Positions 8,776 to 64,000 of a stretch of DNA of 64,000 nucleotides are shown piece after piece. Positions within the stretch are counted from its first letter, which is position 1, and each line of letters starts with the position of its first letter. The position numbers and the translations under genes were made by a program. Source of the DNA: Octopus vulgaris (taxonomy: Eukaryota). Location: NCBI GenBank assembly GCA_951406725.2, contig OX597819.1, positions 63,488,001 to 63,552,000 on the forward strand, written 5' to 3'. Under the pieces are notes generated by a model, which searched no databases, was not told the origin of the DNA, and saw nothing but the letters and a program-made list of their open reading frames with translations.

Positions 8776-8867
8776 TTATGTATATATATGCATGTTTATA
8801 TATATATATATATGTATGTATATATATATATATATAATGTGAAATATATTTGTCATCTAAATGTGGG

Positions 8868-9101
8868 TAACCACTAAAGGTGGATGTTACTCTAGCTTGT
8901 ACCCCCAGGAGAAATCTCCTGCTGGCTATTTGCACACTTTCTGTGCCCTATCGGTATTTGCGAAAGGAAACCATCCTGCCCATCGTCGACCTGACGTGAT
9001 ACGCACGGACCCCGGTTTCTGAGTATTTACCCGTCATCAGCACACGACAATCACCGGTCCTCGATCCGAAGACCGGTGATTGCCGTGCGCTGATGACGAG
9101 T
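8868..9101 (-). mobile_element. Diverged relative of the 352-bp retrozyme unit, with an HHR at 8996-9054 (-) and a short inverted piece at 9071-9101
   Basis: Colinear similarity to 37265-37450. The minus strand reads gtgat-tgt-cgtgtg-CTGATGA-cgggtaaatactca-GAAA-ccgggg-TC-cgtgcg-t-atcac. Confidence 0.75.
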
Positions 9102-31030: not shown

Positions 31031-32911
31031 ATTGTGATTTGAGAAATATTTGGTTTGCAAGTTATAGCAGATAGTATAATGCTATGGTGAAATGAGGCCG
31101 AACTATGCCCATAGAGCGTAGTACACAATAACCGATCGCATATTTTTGATAAGATCTAGCATTATATTGTCGGTGGAATCTATCACTGCAATCTTGAAAA
31201 TAAATCTCGCCCACGGTAAGAGCTAAAATTGCTGCGGACGTTTGTTTACGTCTTCCAAAAGATGAGAATTTCAATTCAATGACAAGTCTTTATAATCATA
31301 TATTCAAAAGCTCATTCCCTACCTGGAATAACTAGTTTAAAGCGGCCTATCTCCCTACAGTGATGCATTTCACCGTTGATTTCACATAGTTCATGTTATT
31401 AAATGTACCAATGTCCTTGATACGGTATGTTTTTCTCACACTTTTCCTTGAAGCAGTTTTCCAGATTTGAAGCCAAAAAATAACCCATTCTCTTGGCAAT
31501 TTACTAATACGGGTGATATGTTTCTCTGAGGAACTGACGAAAATCGCTATTAACATGTTGAAAGAGAACCACGGAAGTTGACAGTCGCCAATGTTGATAA
31601 GGGAATACAGGGACCACTTGATTGAATCCATCAAGTACCTATAAATTTCACAAGCATAAAATGGTGGACACACTGCATAATATAATTCTAGGTACATTAC
31701 AGTGTGTAGAACAAATTAAAAAGAAAAGAGGAGACTACGACTTGAACGTCTCTCATCACGAGTCTTTCTAGGAGAGGTTGACCTGATGCTAAGAATACGA
31801 CCAGAAATAACCCAACCACAAACTGTATATTTGTGATAGAATCATCAGGGAAACATCCGATAGGTTGTGGCAAATACGGGGCAATGACTGATCGCACAGA
31901 CCGTTTGTGATTGAGAAGTAGGCAAGCAATTAATTCTGCATCAGTCATTCTGTCTATTACAGAAGGAAATAATAGCGTCTCGCTTTCGGTGAAACCCTCG
32001 CCTACCGTATCATACTTACATTAGTCAGTCACGTTATTGCATCGTGACATTCTAGAAGGAAATATCGTCTCCGTCTCGTGTTGAGCTGAAACGGTCTATT
32101 TACTTGCTCGTTTTTGAAATATCTTAAGTATCAAATTGCTGAATTAAGTGTGCTTATTATGTTATTTATTGATTTTGTCAACACTTGTTAATTTATCATT
32201 TTACCATACATAATGCGATTGTTTATTTGTAACTTCATCTCCATCTCATCTTAACAATGTCTTTCAGTCTCACTCTCTTCCACTTTCTCACACACATACA
32301 ACATACGTGTATGAGTGTGTGAGCGTATCACTACACACATGCATACATGCTTGTATACTTGGGCGCATACGTAAATATTTACACATACATACACGAACAC
32401 ATGTATCACTGAATGTTTCAGTGAATACGTCTGGTTAATGTGTGTTTATGTGTGTGTGTTTATATGTGCGTGTGTGTGTGTTCTATCTGTGAGTGCCTGA
32501 GTTTTCATGAACAATGACATTCCAAACCTCAATCTCCATTTCTCCATTTCTCCATTCCACTGTTTACCTGCATCAGCATTTCTCTTCTATTGGAATCACG
32601 TTCCCAGTTGAAATTATACGTGACATGGACAATACTGTTTCGTTTTAAGACGATTCAATACAATATAATACGAAGCTATGCAACTGTTTGGATGGCGGTG
32701 TTGATTGTACAGGTTGTGGCGATAGTTTTACTGGATTTTATATTCTATTTGAATAGTACGATGATCACCATAATCATTACGTCGTTTTCGATGAGGTCTG
32801 GGATAGCAAAACATTTAAGATCCCGGAGACCTCGGAATGTGTCGCATATAGGAGCAATTTTTGAGAGAGCTGTGATGTTGGACGAAGCGTTATTATATTT
32901 GTAATAGTAAC

Positions 32912-33230
32912 AAGGCGGTGTGCTGGCAGAAACGTTAGCACGACGGGTGAAATACTTAGCGGTATTTCGTCTGCCGTTACGTTCTGAGTTCGAATTCCGC
33001 CGAGGCCGAGTTTGCCTTTCATCCTTTAGGGGTCGACAAATTAATTACCAGTTACGCACTGGGGTCGATGTAATCGACTTAATCCGTATGTCTGTCCTTG
33101 TTTGTCCTCTCTGTGTTTAGCCCCTTGTGGGTAGTAAAGAAATAGGTATTTCGTTTGTTAGTTACGTTCTGAGTTCAAATTCCACCGAGGTCGAATTTGC
33201 CTTTCATCTTTTCGTGGTCGATAAATTAAT
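32912..33230 (+). mobile_element. SINE family C (Nin/Deu-like domain) plus a partial tandem copy
   Basis: B box gagttcgaattcc and gcctttcatccttt..gggtcga domain. Confidence 0.8.
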
Positions 33231-35750: not shown

Positions 35751-35868
35751 TTGGAGTAAAGATAATTTGCCAACGTAACATGGCAGTCTTGGTTTAGGAC
35801 GAATGTGGATGCAATTTAGTCCTAAACCAGGACTGCCATGTTATGCTGGCAAACAATCTTTACTCCAA
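35751..35868. repeat. 118-bp MITE-like hairpin
   Basis: 50-bp arms ttggagtaaagat..ttaggac and gtcctaaacc..tctttactccaa. Confidence 0.7.
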
Positions 35869-37205: not shown

Positions 37206-37254
<49 letters not shown>

Positions 37255-37400
37255 CTCAATATGGCTACCCCTAAGGGTGGATGCTACTGTAGTTTTTAGC
37301 CCCAGGAGGACACACTCCTCCAGCTGGCCATAGACACACTTTCTGTGTCCTGTCAGTATTTGCAAAGGGAAGTCATCCTTCCCGTCTTCAACTTATGATA

Positions 37401-37444
37401 CACACGGACTCGAGTTTCGAGTATTGACCTCTCGTCAGCGTGTG
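37401..37444 (-). ncRNA. Type I hammerhead ribozyme (inverted copy, 1-nt deletion in stem II)
   Basis: Reverse complement of the motif, with gagtattgacctc in place of gaggtattgacctc. Confidence 0.8.
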
Positions 37445-37734
37445 ACAATCATATAGATTTCCTTCACAAATACTTATACTTTTTCCAGCGTCCACTGTCG
37501 CTGATATTGAAAATGAAATCAAACAATGATAAATATCAAAGTGAGTTATATACAGTAGCGGTAACACATCGTGACGTATATTTGCCATCTCAATATGGCT
37601 ACCCCTAAGGGTGGATGCTACTGTAGTTTTTAGCCCCAGGAGGACACACTCCTCCAGCTGGCCATAGACACACTTCCTGTGTCCTGTCAGTATTTGCAAA
37701 GGGAAGTCATCCTTCCCGTCTTCAACTTATGATA

Positions 37735-37779
37735 CACACGGACTCGAGTTTCGAGGTATTGACCTCTCGTCAGCGTGTG
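37735..37779 (-). ncRNA. Type I hammerhead ribozyme (inverted copy)
   Basis: cacacggactcgagtttcgaggtattgacctctcgtcagcgtgtg is the exact reverse complement of the + motif. Confidence 0.9.
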
Positions 37780-38166
37780 ACAATCATAGTTGTCGGCGAG
37801 AATTAGATTTCCTTCACAAATACTTATACTTTTTCCAGCGTCCACTGTCGCTGATATTGAAAAAGTGAAATCAAACAATGATAAATATCAAAGTGAGTTA
37901 TATACAGTAGCGGTAACACATCGTGACGTATATTTGTCTATGGCCAGCTGGAGGAGTGTGTCCTCCTGGGGCTAAAAACTACAGTAGCATCCACCCTTAG
38001 GGGTTAGCCATATTGAGATGGCAAATATACGCCATGATGTGTTAGCGCTACTGTATATAACTCACTTTGATATTTATCATTGTTTGATTTCACTTTTTCA
38101 ATATCAGCGACAGTGGACGCTGGAAAAAGTATAAGTATTTGTGAAGGAAATCTAATTTCTCGCCGA

Positions 38167-38236
38167 CAACTATGATTGTCACACGCTGACGAGAGGTCAA
38201 TACCTCGAAACTCGAGTCCGTGTGTATCATAAGTTG
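38167..38236 (+). ncRNA. Type I hammerhead ribozyme (352-bp unit)
   Basis: cacacg-CTGACGA-gaggt(caat)acctc-GAAA-ctcgag-TC^-cgtgtg. Stem I extends as tatgat/atcata across a tgt/t internal loop. Predicted cleavage after 38218. Confidence 0.92.
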
Positions 38237-38518
38237 AAGACGGGAAGGATGACTTCCCTTTGCAAATACTGACAGGACACAGAAAGTGTGTCTATGGCCA
38301 GCTGGAGGAGTGTGTCCTCCTGGGGCTAAAAACCACAGTAGCATCCACCCTTAGGGGTAGCCATATTGAGATGGCAAATATACGTCACGATGTGTTACCG
38401 CTACTGTATATAACTCACTTTGATATTTATCATTGTTTGATTTCACTTTTTCAATATCAGCGACAGTGGACGCTGGAAAAAGTATAAGTATTTGTGAAGG
38501 AAATCTAATTCTCGCCGA

Positions 38519-38588
38519 CAACTATGATTGTCACACGCTGACGAGAGGTCAATACCTCGAAACTCGAGTCCGTGTGTATCATAAGTTG
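38519..38588 (+). ncRNA. Type I hammerhead ribozyme (second + copy)
   Basis: Same motif, core 38532-38576, predicted GUC cleavage after 38570. Confidence 0.92.
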
Positions 38589-38883
38589 AAGACGGGAAGG
38601 ATGACTTCCCTTTGCAAATACTGACAGGACACAGAAAGTGTGTCTATGGCCAGCTGGAGGAGTGTGTCCTCCTGGGGCTAAAAACTACAGTAGCATCCAC
38701 CCTTAGGGGTAGCCATATTGAGATGGCAAATATACGTCACGTTGTGTTACTGCTACTGTATATAACTCACTTTGATATTTATCATTGTTTGATTTCACTT
38801 TTTCAATATCAGCGACAGTAGACGCTGGAAAAAGTATAAGTATTTGTGAAGGAAATCTAATTCTCGCCGACAACTATGATTGC

Positions 38884-38928
38884 CACACGCTGACGAGAGG
38901 TCAATACCTCGAAACTCGAGTCCGTGTG
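38884..38928 (+). ncRNA. Type I hammerhead ribozyme (third + copy)
   Basis: Same core, predicted cleavage after 38922. Confidence 0.9.
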
Positions 38929-39228
38929 TAACATAAGTTGAAGACGGGAAGGATGACTTCCCTTTGCAAATACTGACAGGACACAGAAAGTGTGTCTATG
39001 GCCAGCTGGAGGAGTGTGTCCTCCTGGGGCTAAAAACTACAGCAGCATCCACCCTTAGGGGTAGCCATATTGAGATGGCAAATATACGTCACGATGTGTT
39101 ACCGCTACTGTATATAACTCACTTTGATATTTATCATTGTTATATATATATATATATATGTAGGTCCCGGGTTGATTCGGGGTTAACCACAGTAAATAAG
39201 GTACTCAATACATAGTAGAGTAAAATTA

Positions 39229-44479: not shown

Positions 44480-44559
<80 letters not shown>

Positions 44560-44725
44560 CATATTAATTGTTATCGCCATATTAATATGGCATTCTTATA
44601 GATATAAGAATAATCGCTGCCGCTGGTCAGCTCCATGAGGCCACCGCCATCAAGATAGCTATTGATACACGATCTGTATCCATTATAACCTTCGAACGAG
44701 GGAGGTCAGCCGCTTCACACTGCCA

Positions 44726-44785
44726 GTCCGACAGCTACAGACGCGTTTCGGGGTATTGCCCCTTGTCAATGTAGCGCAGTCAGAC
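44726..44785 (-). ncRNA. Type I hammerhead ribozyme, U3-A8 variant (inverted copy)
   Basis: Exact reverse complement of 45215-45274. Confidence 0.85.
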
Positions 44786-45214
44786 CCGCAGGTGTCGCCA
44801 CTGACGTCTCTGTTCGAAGGTTTCTATTTACCTAGTTTCAGTGGAATACATTCACTTGTTTTCAATAATAGAAATATTAAAATATTAAAACGCGTCTGTA
44901 GCTGTCGGACTGACAGTGTGAAGCGGCTGACCTCCCTTGTTCGAAGGTTATAATGGATACAGATCGTGTATCAATAGCTATCTTGATGGCGGTGGCCTCA
45001 TGGAGCTGACCAGCGGCAGCGATTATTCTTATGTCTATAAGAATGCCATATTAATATGGCGATAACAATTAATTTCCAGTAAACGCTGCCGTAATCTCTT
45101 TTATAGAGACTTAGTAATTTTAATATTTCTATTATTGAAAACAAGTGAATGTATTCCACTGAAACTAGGTAAACAGAAACCTTCGAACAGAGACGTCAGT
45201 GGCGACACCTGCGG

Positions 45215-45274
45215 GTCTGACTGCGCTACATTGACAAGGGGCAATACCCCGAAACGCGTCTGTAGCTGTCGGAC
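45215..45274 (+). ncRNA. Type I hammerhead ribozyme with U3-A8 core variant
   Basis: gtctgac-tgc-gctaca-TTGACAA-gggg(caata)cccc-GAAA-cgcg-TC^-tgtagc-t-gtcggac. Confidence 0.85.
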
Positions 45275-45619
45275 TGGCAGTGTGAAGCGGCTGATCTCCC
45301 TTGTTCGAAGGTTATAATGGATACAGATCGTGTATCAGTAGCTATCTTGATGGCGGTGGCCTCATGGAGCTGACCAGCGGCAGCGATTATTCTTATATCT
45401 ATAAGAATGCCATATTAATATGGCGATAACAATTAATTTCCAGTAAACGCTGCCGTAATCTCTTTTATAGAGACTTAGTAATTTTAATATTTCTATATAT
45501 ACATATATATATATATAATGAATGATTCTTTTGCATTTTGTAATAATGCAGGCATGTAAGTAATTAATTTATTATTAAATATAATAATATAAATTATTTA
45601 CATGTTTTTAAGTTACAAA

Positions 45620-48170
45620 AGAATTTGCCTAAATATTAAAATTGTCTCATTGTTAATAAAATTTCGTCAGATACCACAGCAGCCTTCATTCCCTTATGAA
45701 AGGAAATGAAAACATTCAACAACTTGTCAGGAATATCCAGCTTTTTCAGAACTTCCCATAATGTTGCCGGTTAACAATGTCGAAGGCCTTAGAAAGATCA
45801 ATGTATATCAAAAACAACTCTTGATTTTTCTCACGTTCTTTCTCTATGACCTATCGAATGAAGCAGTTCTTGTTGATAGTTTCACCTCCAGAGCGAAATC
45901 TGCACTATGATTCTGGATAGATATCTTTTACAACCTGTTTGATGATCCTGTCGAGAATGAGTCGAGCAAGAATCTTACCAGCAGTAGACAGAAGCGATAT
46001 TCCACGATGTTTATCACAAACACTTCTGTTTCCTTTGTTCTTATAAGGGTTTTGAATTGAGGCATCCTTGAAGCCTACCATACAAATGTTTATTCAAGAA
46101 GTCATGCAGTTTCTTAAAAAGCTTTTGTCCACCGTGCTTTTAGATTTCTGGACGGACAGCATCCCTACCAGAACTTTACCAGAAGAGGTCTATTTAATAG
46201 AGTTTACCACTTCCAGGAAAATTGACACCAGAGACTGTTCCAATATTTCAGTGTGCTGTGGAATAGACATTATGACGTCTTCATTAGTGACTGAGGTGGA
46301 GTTCGACACGGCTTCGAAATGTTCTTTGCATCGTGTCAGGATGACAGATTTGCCACTCAGCAGTGTCTTTCTATTCGATGAAAACATAGGATTAACACCG
46401 TGATCTTGAGGACCGTACACTTTCATGAGGCTTTCATAAAAAGATTTAGAATGCTACCTGCTTGCAGGTTCTTGCAGTTCAGTAGCCTTGAAAGACCACG
46501 AAGCCTCCTTCATTTGTCTTAGAGGACGTTGGCTCTGGCATCTCTGCATTTCTTGTATGCATTCTCTTTTCTGGATGAGCTCTCATCATTTATCCATGTT
46601 TTGTGAGAGATGTGCATTTTATCTATCAGCTGTTGGACATTTGTGTTTTTATCATTGAACCAATCTTGATGTTTACGAACAGGAAGTCCAAGAATCTCCA
46701 TCGATGCGGTGTGCGTTGCATCACGCAGAATATTCTAAGTTGATTCTATGTCATCATTGATATCAACAGTGTTGAGTGCAATGTCCATCTTGATAGAGAG
46801 CTCAGCCTGCTGTGAAACAGTTTTCGAAAGCAGAACTTTACTGCGCTTAGGCACTCATGACTTTTGTAGTCTTGTGTGTTTCAGATGGAACGTAGCCTTG
46901 CTACAGAGAAGAGAGTGGTCAGAGAGATAGCAGGTTTTATGAAAGGAACGCGTAATGTTAAAATACGTAATATCTCTCGTTTCTGAGTGATAACATAGTG
47001 TATGAAATGCAAATCCTTTGATCTAAGATGCATCCAGGTGGTCTTGCAACAATTTAGCTGTTGAAAAACAGTAAATGCGATGCTTAGACTGAATTCCCTA
47101 CAGTTAGAAAGCACAAGCAGACCGATGGAGTTCCTTCAAACTACACCATGGCGACCAAGTACACCCATCCATACCTCATAGTCAGTACCAACACGTTAAA
47201 AACGCCCATAAGGATAAGTTTATCCCTGTGGTGACAACTGGCGATGATATTATGTTTGTAAAATTCATCCTTTTCCTACTCGGTGATGGCCATGGGTGGG
47301 GTAGAGCAGCTGACAAGCATAGCACAAAATTTGTGATCAAGTTCAAAAGTTATGTCATGATGCGATTAGAAATATCGTTGGGTAGAGAAAGAAGGGATCT
47401 AGCTATTTCTGTTTTGATAGCAACACCAACACCAAAGTGGCGTGGCTCGTTTTCAGTTCTCCCACACCAGAGAAATACGTATTCACATTTACTTCTAACT
47501 GTCATGATCCTGCAAGACGAGTTTCACTGAGTGCAGCTATACCAAAGTTGTATTTCTTTAGGTCAAGGGCAGCCGGTGCTGTTTTTCGTTCTGGTGCTGA
47601 GTGACTATCTTGGAGAGAGCGCACATTCCAAAACCAAAGTTAATATTCTTAGATCTCTTCATGTTTGGAATGCGTTACTGAATAACGAGACAGCTGCAGC
47701 GGGCTGCCAAGTTTGAGGTGAGTAAGCAACATTTGGGCTCCTTTTCTCGTCCTTCCTCTATTGAGGAAAGCAGTGCTGTTTCTAAATAAACCTGCTTTAT
47801 CATCACTGGATGACACGGACAGCACACCTACTCGCAGGTTCTGTGCTAGAACGGCCATCAACAAAAGTTTGCCGATTGTGTAGAGAACCAGTAAGAGACT
47901 TCCAGTAATATCCTTTACCTGTCCCTGCCGCTTTCACTCTCTCACCAGAAGACTTTTCGATTCCTGAAATTTGAAGATTGGCCATTTCGAATGAATAAAT
48001 GTAAATTGTCAGAAAACCCATATCTAGGATTTGATATGAGTGTTGAAGGCTTGTGTAGAACTAGCCACACTTATTTGTAGTACTGATAGCAAGAGAAAGG
48101 TTTTATACCAGTTTCCCTCACATGGATGGGATGCCTTCACGACTGTTAAGGAGCCCCATCTGCCCCCTAA
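45620..48170 (-). mobile_element. Decayed RTE-clade LINE (5' region, APE remnant and N-terminal part of RT)
   Basis: RKHQDWF, KVYGPQ, YKNKGNRSVCDKHRGISLLSTAGKILAR, IDLSKAFDIVNR on the minus strand. Confidence 0.85.
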
Positions 48171-50275: not shown

Positions 50276-50287
50276 ATATATGTATAT

Positions 50288-50520
50288 CTATTTCCTTACT
50301 ACCCACAAGGGGCTAAACACAGAGGGGACAAACAAAGACAGACGTAGGTATTAAGTCGATTACATCGACCCCAGTGCGTAACTGGTACTTAATTTATCGA
50401 CCCCGAAAGGATGAAAGGCAAAGTCGACCTCGGCGGAATTTGAACCCAGAACGTAGCGGCAGACGAAATACGGCTAGGCATTTCGCCCGGCGCGCTAACG
50501 TGTCTGCCAGCTCGCCGCCT
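50288..50520 (-). mobile_element. SINE family C
   Basis: Reverse complement of 32912-33146. Confidence 0.85.
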
Positions 50521-63439: not shown

Positions 63440-64000
63440 TTTGTTCAGATGGACTAAGTGATTGGCTAAATAAGAGGAAGAGAGCAATGCCGTTTGCAAT
63501 ACATATGATATGGAGAGTGGAAAGGATCATTTCATGGACTGTTATATCTTATTTCTTTACTACCCACAAGGGGCTACACACAGAGTGGACAAACAAGGAC
63601 AGACAAACGAATCAAGTTGATTATATCGACCCCAGTGAGTAACTCGTACTTATTTATTCGACCCAGCAAGGATGAAAGGCAAAATTGACCTCGGCGGAAT
63701 TTGAACTCAGAACGTTGCGGCAGACGAAATACAGTTAAGCATTTCGCCCAGCGTGCTAACCATTCTGCCAGCTCACCGCCTTGTTGGACAGTTATTTCTG
63801 CAACGATAATGTAAGTGGGTTTACTGTAAAGACCAAGCATAAGATTGTGTATCCCAGCTTGGAATCAGCAAGAAGAACAGTGCCACACAACCATGATGAT
63901 CTTCCTATTCCAATACCACCATAAAATGACCTTCAGATGTCTGACGAAGATGTATTTCCTGAAGAAAATACTACTGCTGTGGAAGACACCTAAGTGGGTG
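63440..64000 (+). mobile_element. Chapaev-like DNA transposase N-terminal fragment, split by a SINE
   Basis: WLNKRKRAMPFAIHMIWR..DHFMDCY / YFC...GFTVKTKHKIVYPSLESARRTVPH..LPIPIPP. Family assigned from remembered motifs, not from a search. Confidence 0.6.
63549..63782 (-). mobile_element. SINE family C inserted in the Chapaev-like fragment, TSD tggac(t/a)gttat
   Basis: Reverse complement of 32912-33146. TSD at 63535-63545 and 63785-63795. Confidence 0.85.

What the first reader, a model, noticed from the sequence alone, without database searches (positions are those of the whole stretch)
44563..45496. Unrelated 364-bp family whose hammerhead carries a compensatory U3-A8 core
Seen: the core reads UUGACAA instead of CUGAnGA in both full copies. 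The C3-G8 pair is replaced by U3-A8, so standard pattern searches would miss it. Although the primary sequence is different, the geometry matches the 352-bp family: 6-bp proximal stem I, a UGY/U 3x1 internal loop, a distal helix, a CAAUA loop 2 and a palindromic stem III. Known: positions 3 and 8 form a Watson-Crick tertiary pair in the active HHR. Inference: the covariation and conserved loop geometry point to selection for activity. The sense segment starts inside the core (44888), a few nt upstream of the cleavage site.
Basis: partly seen in the sequence, partly recalled or inferred. Interest (0 to 1): 0.85.

Follow-up and report, generated by a model that had tools for sequence, protein, structure and literature searches.

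The report
Jumping ribozyme repeat with swapped core
This is a short repeated DNA element with thousands of relatives in the genome, whose predicted self-cutting RNA carries an already known alternative core base pair (U-A instead of C-G) and which was likely spread by Penelope-type retrotransposons; older relatives show this pair also in C-G and in two mismatched states.

Summary
The U3-A8 hammerhead is real (window 45231+ and 44769-) and fixed: 216 of 219 exact cores and 2,313 of 2,409 rows under a looser pattern. Natural U3-A8 is already published (PMC3088659, PMC4209133). The element looks like a non-LTR retrozyme with Penelope-type insertion marks: outward-facing inverted arms, two fixed 3' ends about 59 nt apart, (TA)n targets and target duplications of about 12 bp.

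The 364-bp and 352-bp units are homologous (56% in phase, z 10.7). The 5' junction beside the cleavage site looks like chance (13 of 193 ends, about 14 expected).

Not found in my literature searches: old subfamilies of the same superfamily carry C3-G8, C3·A8 or U3·G8 as their usual state. The 3-8 pair alone therefore does not prove selection for cleavage. Compensatory changes in stems I and II and in the stem III palindrome are better evidence. Cleavage, expression and the mobilising element are untested.

The parts
44555..44562 (+). Left copy of the target duplication ATATACAT inside a (TA)n tract (13 nt if overlaps with the element ends are counted)
   Evidence: sequence; script (L001)
44563..44883 (-). 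Inverted, 5'-truncated arm (321 nt); its 3' end points outward and stops at the short end (unit position 305)
44728..44783 (-). Complete type I hammerhead: U3 at 44769, A8 at 44764, predicted cleavage between 44740 and 44739
   Evidence: mirror of 45217-45272
44888..45496 (+). Sense arm, 609 nt (1.67 units of 364 bp); stops at the long 3' end (unit position 364)
44897..45260 (+). One whole monomer between two predicted cleavage sites; folds as a branched, highly paired RNA (z -8.5)
45217..45272 (+). Complete type I hammerhead: U3 45231, A8 45236, stem II 45238-45250, palindrome ACGCGT 45254-45259, predicted cleavage after C 45260; the distal helix runs on to about 45206/45283
45409..45424 (+). 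GCCA-N-UGGC hairpin about 13 nt before the short 3' end, kept across the superfamily including the 352 unit; candidate recognition element (inferred)
45438..45496 (+). About 59-nt tail between the short (45437-45439) and long (45496) 3' ends
   Evidence: 96 long, 85 short, 12 other of 193 arms
45497..45504 (+). Right copy of the target duplication ATATACAT
   Evidence: sequence
37253..39141 (.). Distant relative: 352-bp family insertion with C3-G8 hammerheads and the same inverted-plus-tandem layout

Best explanation
The 364-bp unit is a non-coding repeat with a U3-A8 hammerhead motif that is likely a non-LTR retrozyme: its RNA is predicted to self-cleave, best as a dimer through the stem III palindrome, and was likely copied into AT-rich DNA by the enzymes of a Penelope-like element acting in trans. 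Shown: unit, copy number, insertion layout, compensatory changes and kinship with the 352-bp family. Inferred: a tandem copy is transcribed and cut into 364-nt monomers, which may circularise. A Penelope reverse transcriptase/GIY-YIG protein, probably a dimer, nicks both strands of a (TA)n target about 12 bp apart. It starts cDNA at two internal sites of the RNA, unit positions about 305 and 364. This gives one short-ended and one long-ended arm, joined head to head. U3-A8 is an old fixed state of one long-lived branch of a superfamily whose other branches carry C3-G8, C3·A8 or U3·G8.
For: Layout (127 loci): 74 have two arms with 3' ends outward, 45 one arm, 8 other; 62 of the 74 pair one long with one short end. 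This matches the inverted arms and tail of Penelope-like elements (PMC8557442 passages) and the two internal start sites shown for Poseidon-Ac (PMC11167929). Targets: 109 of 127 loci have (TA)n or (TAA)n within 30 bp of an end; 22 of 127 have an informative duplication, 18 of them 11-13 bp (shuffled flank pairs: mean 1.6, max 4). Template: 25 of 193 arms cross two or more cleavage sites, up to five, so the template was a circle or an uncut multimer. Structure (31 natural copies): 91% of cells paired; two-sided changes at 3 of 6 proximal stem I pairs and at the outer stem II pair; the palindrome centre is AU 15, GC 10, UA 5, CG 1. Two copies co-fold through the palindrome. Partner class present: a young 781-aa RT plus GIY-YIG element lies in the same genome and also ends in (TA)n. 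U3-A8 ribozymes are active in vitro (PMC3088659, citing work I could not read). Similar 350-390 bp mussel repeats self-cleave and give circular RNA (PMC7229834, section read).
Against: No cleavage assay and no shown transcript. RNAfold prefers an inactive pairing of core G5-A6-C7 with the GUC triplet in this subfamily (tertiary contacts are not modelled). 5' ends are not enriched at the cleavage site, so the DNA copies hold no trace of cleavage. Subfamilies with mismatched 3-8 states also spread, and hammerhead mutants did not affect insertion by Poseidon-Ac in vitro (PMC11167929). No terminal repeat among the 50 GIY-YIG loci examined resembles the unit; hits in L109, L130 and L135 are separate neighbouring insertions, so the mobiliser is unidentified. 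The (TA)n count has no genome-background control in a microsatellite-rich genome. Related sequences can beat the shuffles without structure, and those copies were selected by a pattern that fixes the core.
Confidence: 0.75

Rival explanations
1. The element is mobilised in the same way, but its hammerhead is weak or dispensable for spreading. The template is an uncut tandem transcript, and the 3-8 pair drifts through mismatched states with little cost.
For: C3·A8 and U3·G8 are subfamily-wide states. No 5'-end peak at the cleavage site. Arms cross up to five sites. Insertion by Poseidon-Ac in vitro does not need cleavage (PMC11167929).
Against: All other core positions stay invariant across 31 divergent copies (pattern-selected). 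Stems I and II and the palindrome keep pairing through two-sided changes. The young, abundant branches are Watson-Crick (U3-A8, and the 352 family with C3-G8).
Confidence: 0.17
2. The unit is the solo terminal repeat (pLTR) of an autonomous Penelope-like element whose coding copies were not sampled.
For: Truncated Penelope copies leave the same inverted/tandem pattern. Only 40 of 2,181 candidates were scored, and flanks were 1.5-2 kb.
Against: In the loci inspected, what lies upstream of a unit is the previous unit's 3' part, an inverted arm or flank; arrays reach about 5.5 units (L146). No same-strand cores about 3 kb apart were seen among the 100 places listed. The young coding element has a different repeat with a minimal hammerhead. 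I did not translate all flanks.
Confidence: 0.05
3. It is satellite-like DNA spread by recombination or slippage, with no RNA step.
For: Tandem copies; it sits in microsatellites.
Against: Dispersed short insertions on many chromosomes, fixed 3' ends with ragged 5' ends, target duplications, and compensatory changes in RNA helices.
Confidence: 0.03

Closest known systems
Non-LTR retrozymes of metazoans, e.g. the 350-390 bp Mytilus repeats (PMC7229834; bioRxiv 10.64898/2026.07.22.740005)
   Same: Short non-coding tandem unit, one type I hammerhead per unit, highly paired monomer, thousands of copies, long target duplications, Penelope elements in the same genome.
   Different: U3-A8 core; no sequence comparison with published retrozymes was made. 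Here the Penelope tail and inverted-arm signature is counted directly. RNA circles and cleavage are not shown, and no link to a particular terminal repeat was found.
U3-A8 hammerheads in Schistosoma Cercyon elements (PMC4209133) and in other natural hammerheads (PMC3088659)
   Same: The same covariant core pair.
   Different: The Schistosoma motifs are minimal hammerheads, mostly single. This is a canonical motif with a 6-bp stem I, an internal loop and a 4-bp stem II in a tandem non-coding unit, with C3-G8, C3·A8 and U3·G8 relatives in the same genome.
Poseidon-Ac Penelope-like element (PMC11167929)
   Same: AT-rich targets; two fixed 3' ends downstream of the hammerhead defining a tail; both strands extended.
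   Different: Poseidon-Ac is coding and its tail is described as 30-40 bp; here there is no coding frame and the tail is about 59 nt.
Non-autonomous Chlamys elements such as MRC1 (PMC8557442, passage)
   Same: Non-autonomous Penelope passengers with head-to-tail insertions.
   Different: Those generally share 3' sequence with their autonomous partner and lack canonical hammerheads; no shared sequence was found here.

Membership tests
Type I hammerhead ribozyme | Core N3-UGA-N-N8-A / GAAA / UH with a Watson-Crick 3-8 pair | tested here: met
   UUGACAA...GAAA...UC; U3-A8 in 216 of 219 cores
Type I hammerhead ribozyme | Stems I, II, III with stem I open; loop 1/loop 2 geometry | tested here: met
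   stem III needs the dimer
Type I hammerhead ribozyme | Self-cleavage after H17 | not testable with these tools
   needs an assay
Type I hammerhead ribozyme | Reaches an Rfam hammerhead gathering score | tested here: not met
   0 hits in the window, also none for the C3-G8 copies; a library limit rather than a defining feature
Non-LTR retrozyme | 150-450 bp tandem unit with one type I hammerhead each | tested here: met
   this insertion has only one complete sense hammerhead, so it fails the 'two consecutive complete motifs' rule of the 2026 preprint, while other copies (L146, L182) pass
Non-LTR retrozyme | No coding capacity | tested here: met
   no frame of 100 aa or more overlaps 44563-45496
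Non-LTR retrozyme | Target duplications longer than 4 bp | tested here: met
   22 of 127 informative against 1.6 in controls; the rest lie in simple repeats or show none
Non-LTR retrozyme | Expressed as linear and circular monomer RNA | tested here: inconclusive
   only contigs of runs guessed to be RNA
Passenger of a Penelope-like element | Inverted 5'-truncated arm plus partial tandem, optional tail, AT-rich target | tested here: met
Passenger of a Penelope-like element | Shared end sequence with an autonomous partner | tested here: inconclusive
   none among 50 GIY-YIG loci, out of 6,136 candidates
Autonomous Penelope-like element | RT plus GIY-YIG frame between terminal repeats | tested here: not met
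   layouts

The most novel reading that the evidence does not exclude
This genome holds a fossil series in which one retrozyme lineage moved its catalytic 3-8 pair between C-G and U-A through the mismatched states C·A and U·G, each carried by a subfamily that still multiplied. Either extended dimeric hammerheads tolerate a 3-8 mismatch in vivo, or retrozymes can spread with little cleavage. Either way the natural sequences give a ready test set for how a catalytic compensatory change crosses a fitness valley.
Probability: 0.4. Interest if true: 0.65.

Novelty: new member of a known kind. Interest (0 to 1): 0.42.

Why it matters
The headline feature, U3-A8, is a known variant, so on its own it only shows that C3/G8-only descriptors would miss a family with more than 2,000 cores here. 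Two by-products are more useful. First, the two-ended tail and inverted-arm counts tie a retrozyme mechanistically to Penelope-type reverse transcription; in the parts of the papers I read that link rested on co-occurrence and terminal-repeat phylogeny. Second, subfamilies with all four 3-8 states make it directly testable whether cleavage is needed for retrozyme spread and how a compensatory pair change occurs in a ribozyme core.

Tried and rejected
Rfam scan of the window: nothing.

Expression: no RNA holder listed. Contigs of two runs guessed to be RNA and two of unknown kind cover the unit, mostly as sister subfamilies, but cannot show strand, ends or circles; I draw nothing on expression from them. 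No change at 45231 or 45236 was listed in those four runs, which carry four organism labels, but six rows were hidden.

A cluster of 5' ends just after the cleavage site, suggested by the list, disappeared in the larger sample.

Order of states: the best tree sets the U3-A8 branch (100/100) beside a group of UG, CA and old CG subfamilies, with old CG nested in the CA grade. The outgroups are long branches and the bootstrap had not settled. Two alternatives were not rejected (outgroups plus old CG, p-AU 0.21; U3-A8 plus UG, p-AU 0.26), so no direction is claimed. Five rows were dropped from the first tree: four had no match to the anchors and one matched for under 100 nt.

One C3·A8 hit (L153/L154) is an inversion-junction artefact. 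Scattered C3·A8 and U3·G8 tips inside the U3-A8 branch are single-copy mutations. CpG decay can explain CGCG versus CAUG but not CUAG or CCGG; it cannot give U3, nor A8 after U7 in every copy (reasoning).

Partner search: no shared terminal sequence. One search used a misregistered structure and is superseded. Row L224 had wrong coordinates and was left out.

Literature: (host group guessed from genome size and repeats, not tested) showed no description of this family; searches found nothing on natural C3·A8 cores. The library lacks most subscription papers, Przybilski and Hammann 2007 was not held, and no supplements were read; these may list such variants. Earlier scan findings: none.

Full report
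Observation. Between (CA)n(TA)n and (TA)n tracts lie an inverted arm (44563-44883) and a sense arm (44888-45496) of a 364-bp unit. A scan of the window for type I hammerheads with free positions 3 and 8 returned seven motifs: five C3-G8 in the 352-bp array and two U3-A8 in this element. No frame of 100 aa or more overlaps it. Rfam reports nothing in the window, even for the canonical copies.

Copies. A DNA search gave 2,181 candidates, of which 40 were scored, at 96-100% identity. An exact-core pattern with N at 3 and 8 gave 219 matches and 0 in the control; 2 are not U3 and 1 is not A8, so 216 are U3-A8 and none is C3-G8. A looser pattern gave 2,409 rows against 1 control: 74 with C3 (about 42 C3-G8 and 32 C3·A8 by my hand count) and 22 U3·G8, leaving 2,313 U3-A8. 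Rows can count one place twice, and the pattern under-samples old families with other stem II sequences. Inside the family U3-A8 is an inherited, fixed state.

Structure under selection. In 31 natural copies chosen by me to span the subfamilies, 91% of cells pair (50% or less when partners are slid); 3 of 6 proximal stem I pairs, the outer stem II pair and 2 distal pairs show two-sided changes; the centre of stem III stays self-complementary in all 31 (AU 15, GC 10, UA 5, CG 1). Position 7 is free. Stem III can hardly close within one copy, and two copies co-fold through the palindrome, as described for metazoan type I motifs (PMC4209133, parts 1-2 of 4 read). Against: these copies were selected by a core pattern, relatedness inflates such counts, and RNAfold prefers an inactive G5-A6-C7/GUC pairing in the window's subfamily.

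Insertion layout. Among 127 loci (duplicates removed; chosen for a full unit or an intact core), 74 have two arms with 3' ends outward, 45 one arm and 8 another layout. Of 193 arms, 96 end at unit position 358-364, 85 at 296-310 and 12 elsewhere; 62 of 74 pairs combine one long and one short end. 109 of 127 lie next to (TA)n or (TAA)n (no background control), and 22 show an informative duplication, 18 of them 11-13 bp, against 1.6 for shuffled pairs. Inverted 5'-truncated arms, a tail at one end and microsatellite targets are the Penelope signature (PMC8557442, passages). Poseidon-Ac starts reverse transcription at two internal sites that define the tail and extends both strands of AT-rich DNA (PMC11167929, parts 1-2 of 4 read). 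25 of 193 arms cross at least two cleavage sites, so templates were circles or uncut multimers. 5' ends show no peak at the cleavage site (13 of 193 against about 14 expected), so the junction at 44888 carries no message.

Not unrelated. Old C3-G8 copies (L193, L196, L200) match the 364 unit (best 61% over 442 nt, E 1e-15) and the 352 unit (best 61% over 432 nt, E 7e-14). The two window monomers align in phase at 56% (z 10.7; z 8.2 without the hammerhead), and a profile from the downstream parts of 28 old copies finds both. The 3' domain is collinear across the branches; 10 of 24 consensus pairs have two-sided changes, and a GCCA/UGGC hairpin sits just before the short end.

Four states of the 3-8 pair. 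A search that left the core out of the query returned 30 loci of one old subfamily: 21 cores were readable, 15 of them U3·G8, 2 U3-A8, and one each C3·A8, C3-G8, A3·G8 and U3·C8; two loci were counted in both arms and two copies had been found by pattern. A second core-free search gave 20 readable of 30: 9 C3-G8, 8 C3·A8 and 3 others; the 8 are seven places (two rows are identical), five of them not found by pattern, and they share their own stem I. A pattern with both positions free gave 18 rows: 5 of 5 with that stem I are C3·A8, and the 13 with the other stem I are 7 U3·G8, 4 U3-A8 and 2 C3·A8, seven of these in one cluster on C20. With positions 3 and 8 masked, the tree separates a ladder-like U3-A8 branch (100/100) that holds the youngest copies, a UG group, a CA grade and an old CG group. 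The order of states is not resolved. The mismatched subfamilies have long end branches (about 0.05-0.15), as does the old CG group, so extinction cannot be blamed on the mismatch. In Poseidon-Ac, C3G and G8C single mutants lose cleavage and the double mutant partly recovers (PMC11167929). That G8A is strongly deleterious is recalled, not read. A natural U3·G8 variant is mentioned in PMC7151607 (passage).

Mobiliser. The genome has 6,136 GIY-YIG candidates, 150 scored, among them a young family with a 781-aa RT plus GIY-YIG frame (the RT hit is just under Pfam's cut-off). It has a CX4CX2C motif before the nuclease, like Neptune or Nematis clades (PMC8557442 passage; clade not tested by a tree). 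33 of 50 such loci (two pairs are duplicates) carry a minimal hammerhead that is also U3-A8. No terminal repeat among them resembles the unit, so this element is a candidate only.

Known or new. U3-A8 covariation in nature is reported in PMC3088659 (section 8 read) and PMC4209133. Non-LTR retrozymes of this size in a mollusc, with cleavage and circular RNA, are in PMC7229834 (passages and section 14 read). Their Penelope origin is argued in bioRxiv 10.64898/2026.07.22.740005 (part 1 of 5 and passages read). My searches found no description of this family or of subfamily-wide C3·A8 cores; supplements and most subscription papers were not seen.

Verdict: a real, ordinary-class element, a new member of the non-LTR retrozymes with a known core variant. 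The four-state series and the counted Penelope signature lift it above routine: interest 0.42.

Noticed in passing
L124 1449-3791 (+) and its 3' repeat; L121-L134, L140: Young autonomous Penelope-like family (781-aa RT plus GIY-YIG frame, many near-identical copies) with an upstream 479-aa frame that has no Pfam hit (L124, L132, L133) and a minimal U3-A8 hammerhead about 75 nt before its 3' end in (TA)n.
   Followed up: partly
window 8832-9100 (-): Old relative of the 352-bp family with a C3-G8 core (CUGAUGA at 9040, minus strand) and a short 5' inversion, next to (TA)n.
   Followed up: partly
window 35752-35868: Two short inverted fragments of the superfamily's 3' domain, no hammerhead seen.
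   Followed up: partly
G000 C20 4.23-4.43 Mb: Seven copies of the same old hammerhead in about 200 kb, four U3·G8 and three U3-A8; probably a duplicated segment.
   Followed up: no
L146 (G000 C1, about 8.134 Mb), L182, L179: A sister subfamily with A at core position 7 is the commonest form among listed matches and forms the longest arrays (about 5.5 units); A7 removes the predicted inhibitory GAC/GUC pairing.
   Followed up: partly
L178, L198, L260-L263: A further C3-G8 family with a GUAAGA loop 2 and a longer stem III, related to the 352 and old CG branches.
   Followed up: partly
window 45700-47530: Sequence right of the element looks like a decayed coding repeat (frames of 115 and 140 aa at 46056-46403 and 47108-47530); not identified.
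   Followed up: no
window 32909-33149, 50284-50520, 63550-63785: Three copies of another dispersed repeat of about 237 bp, 87-90% alike.
   Followed up: no
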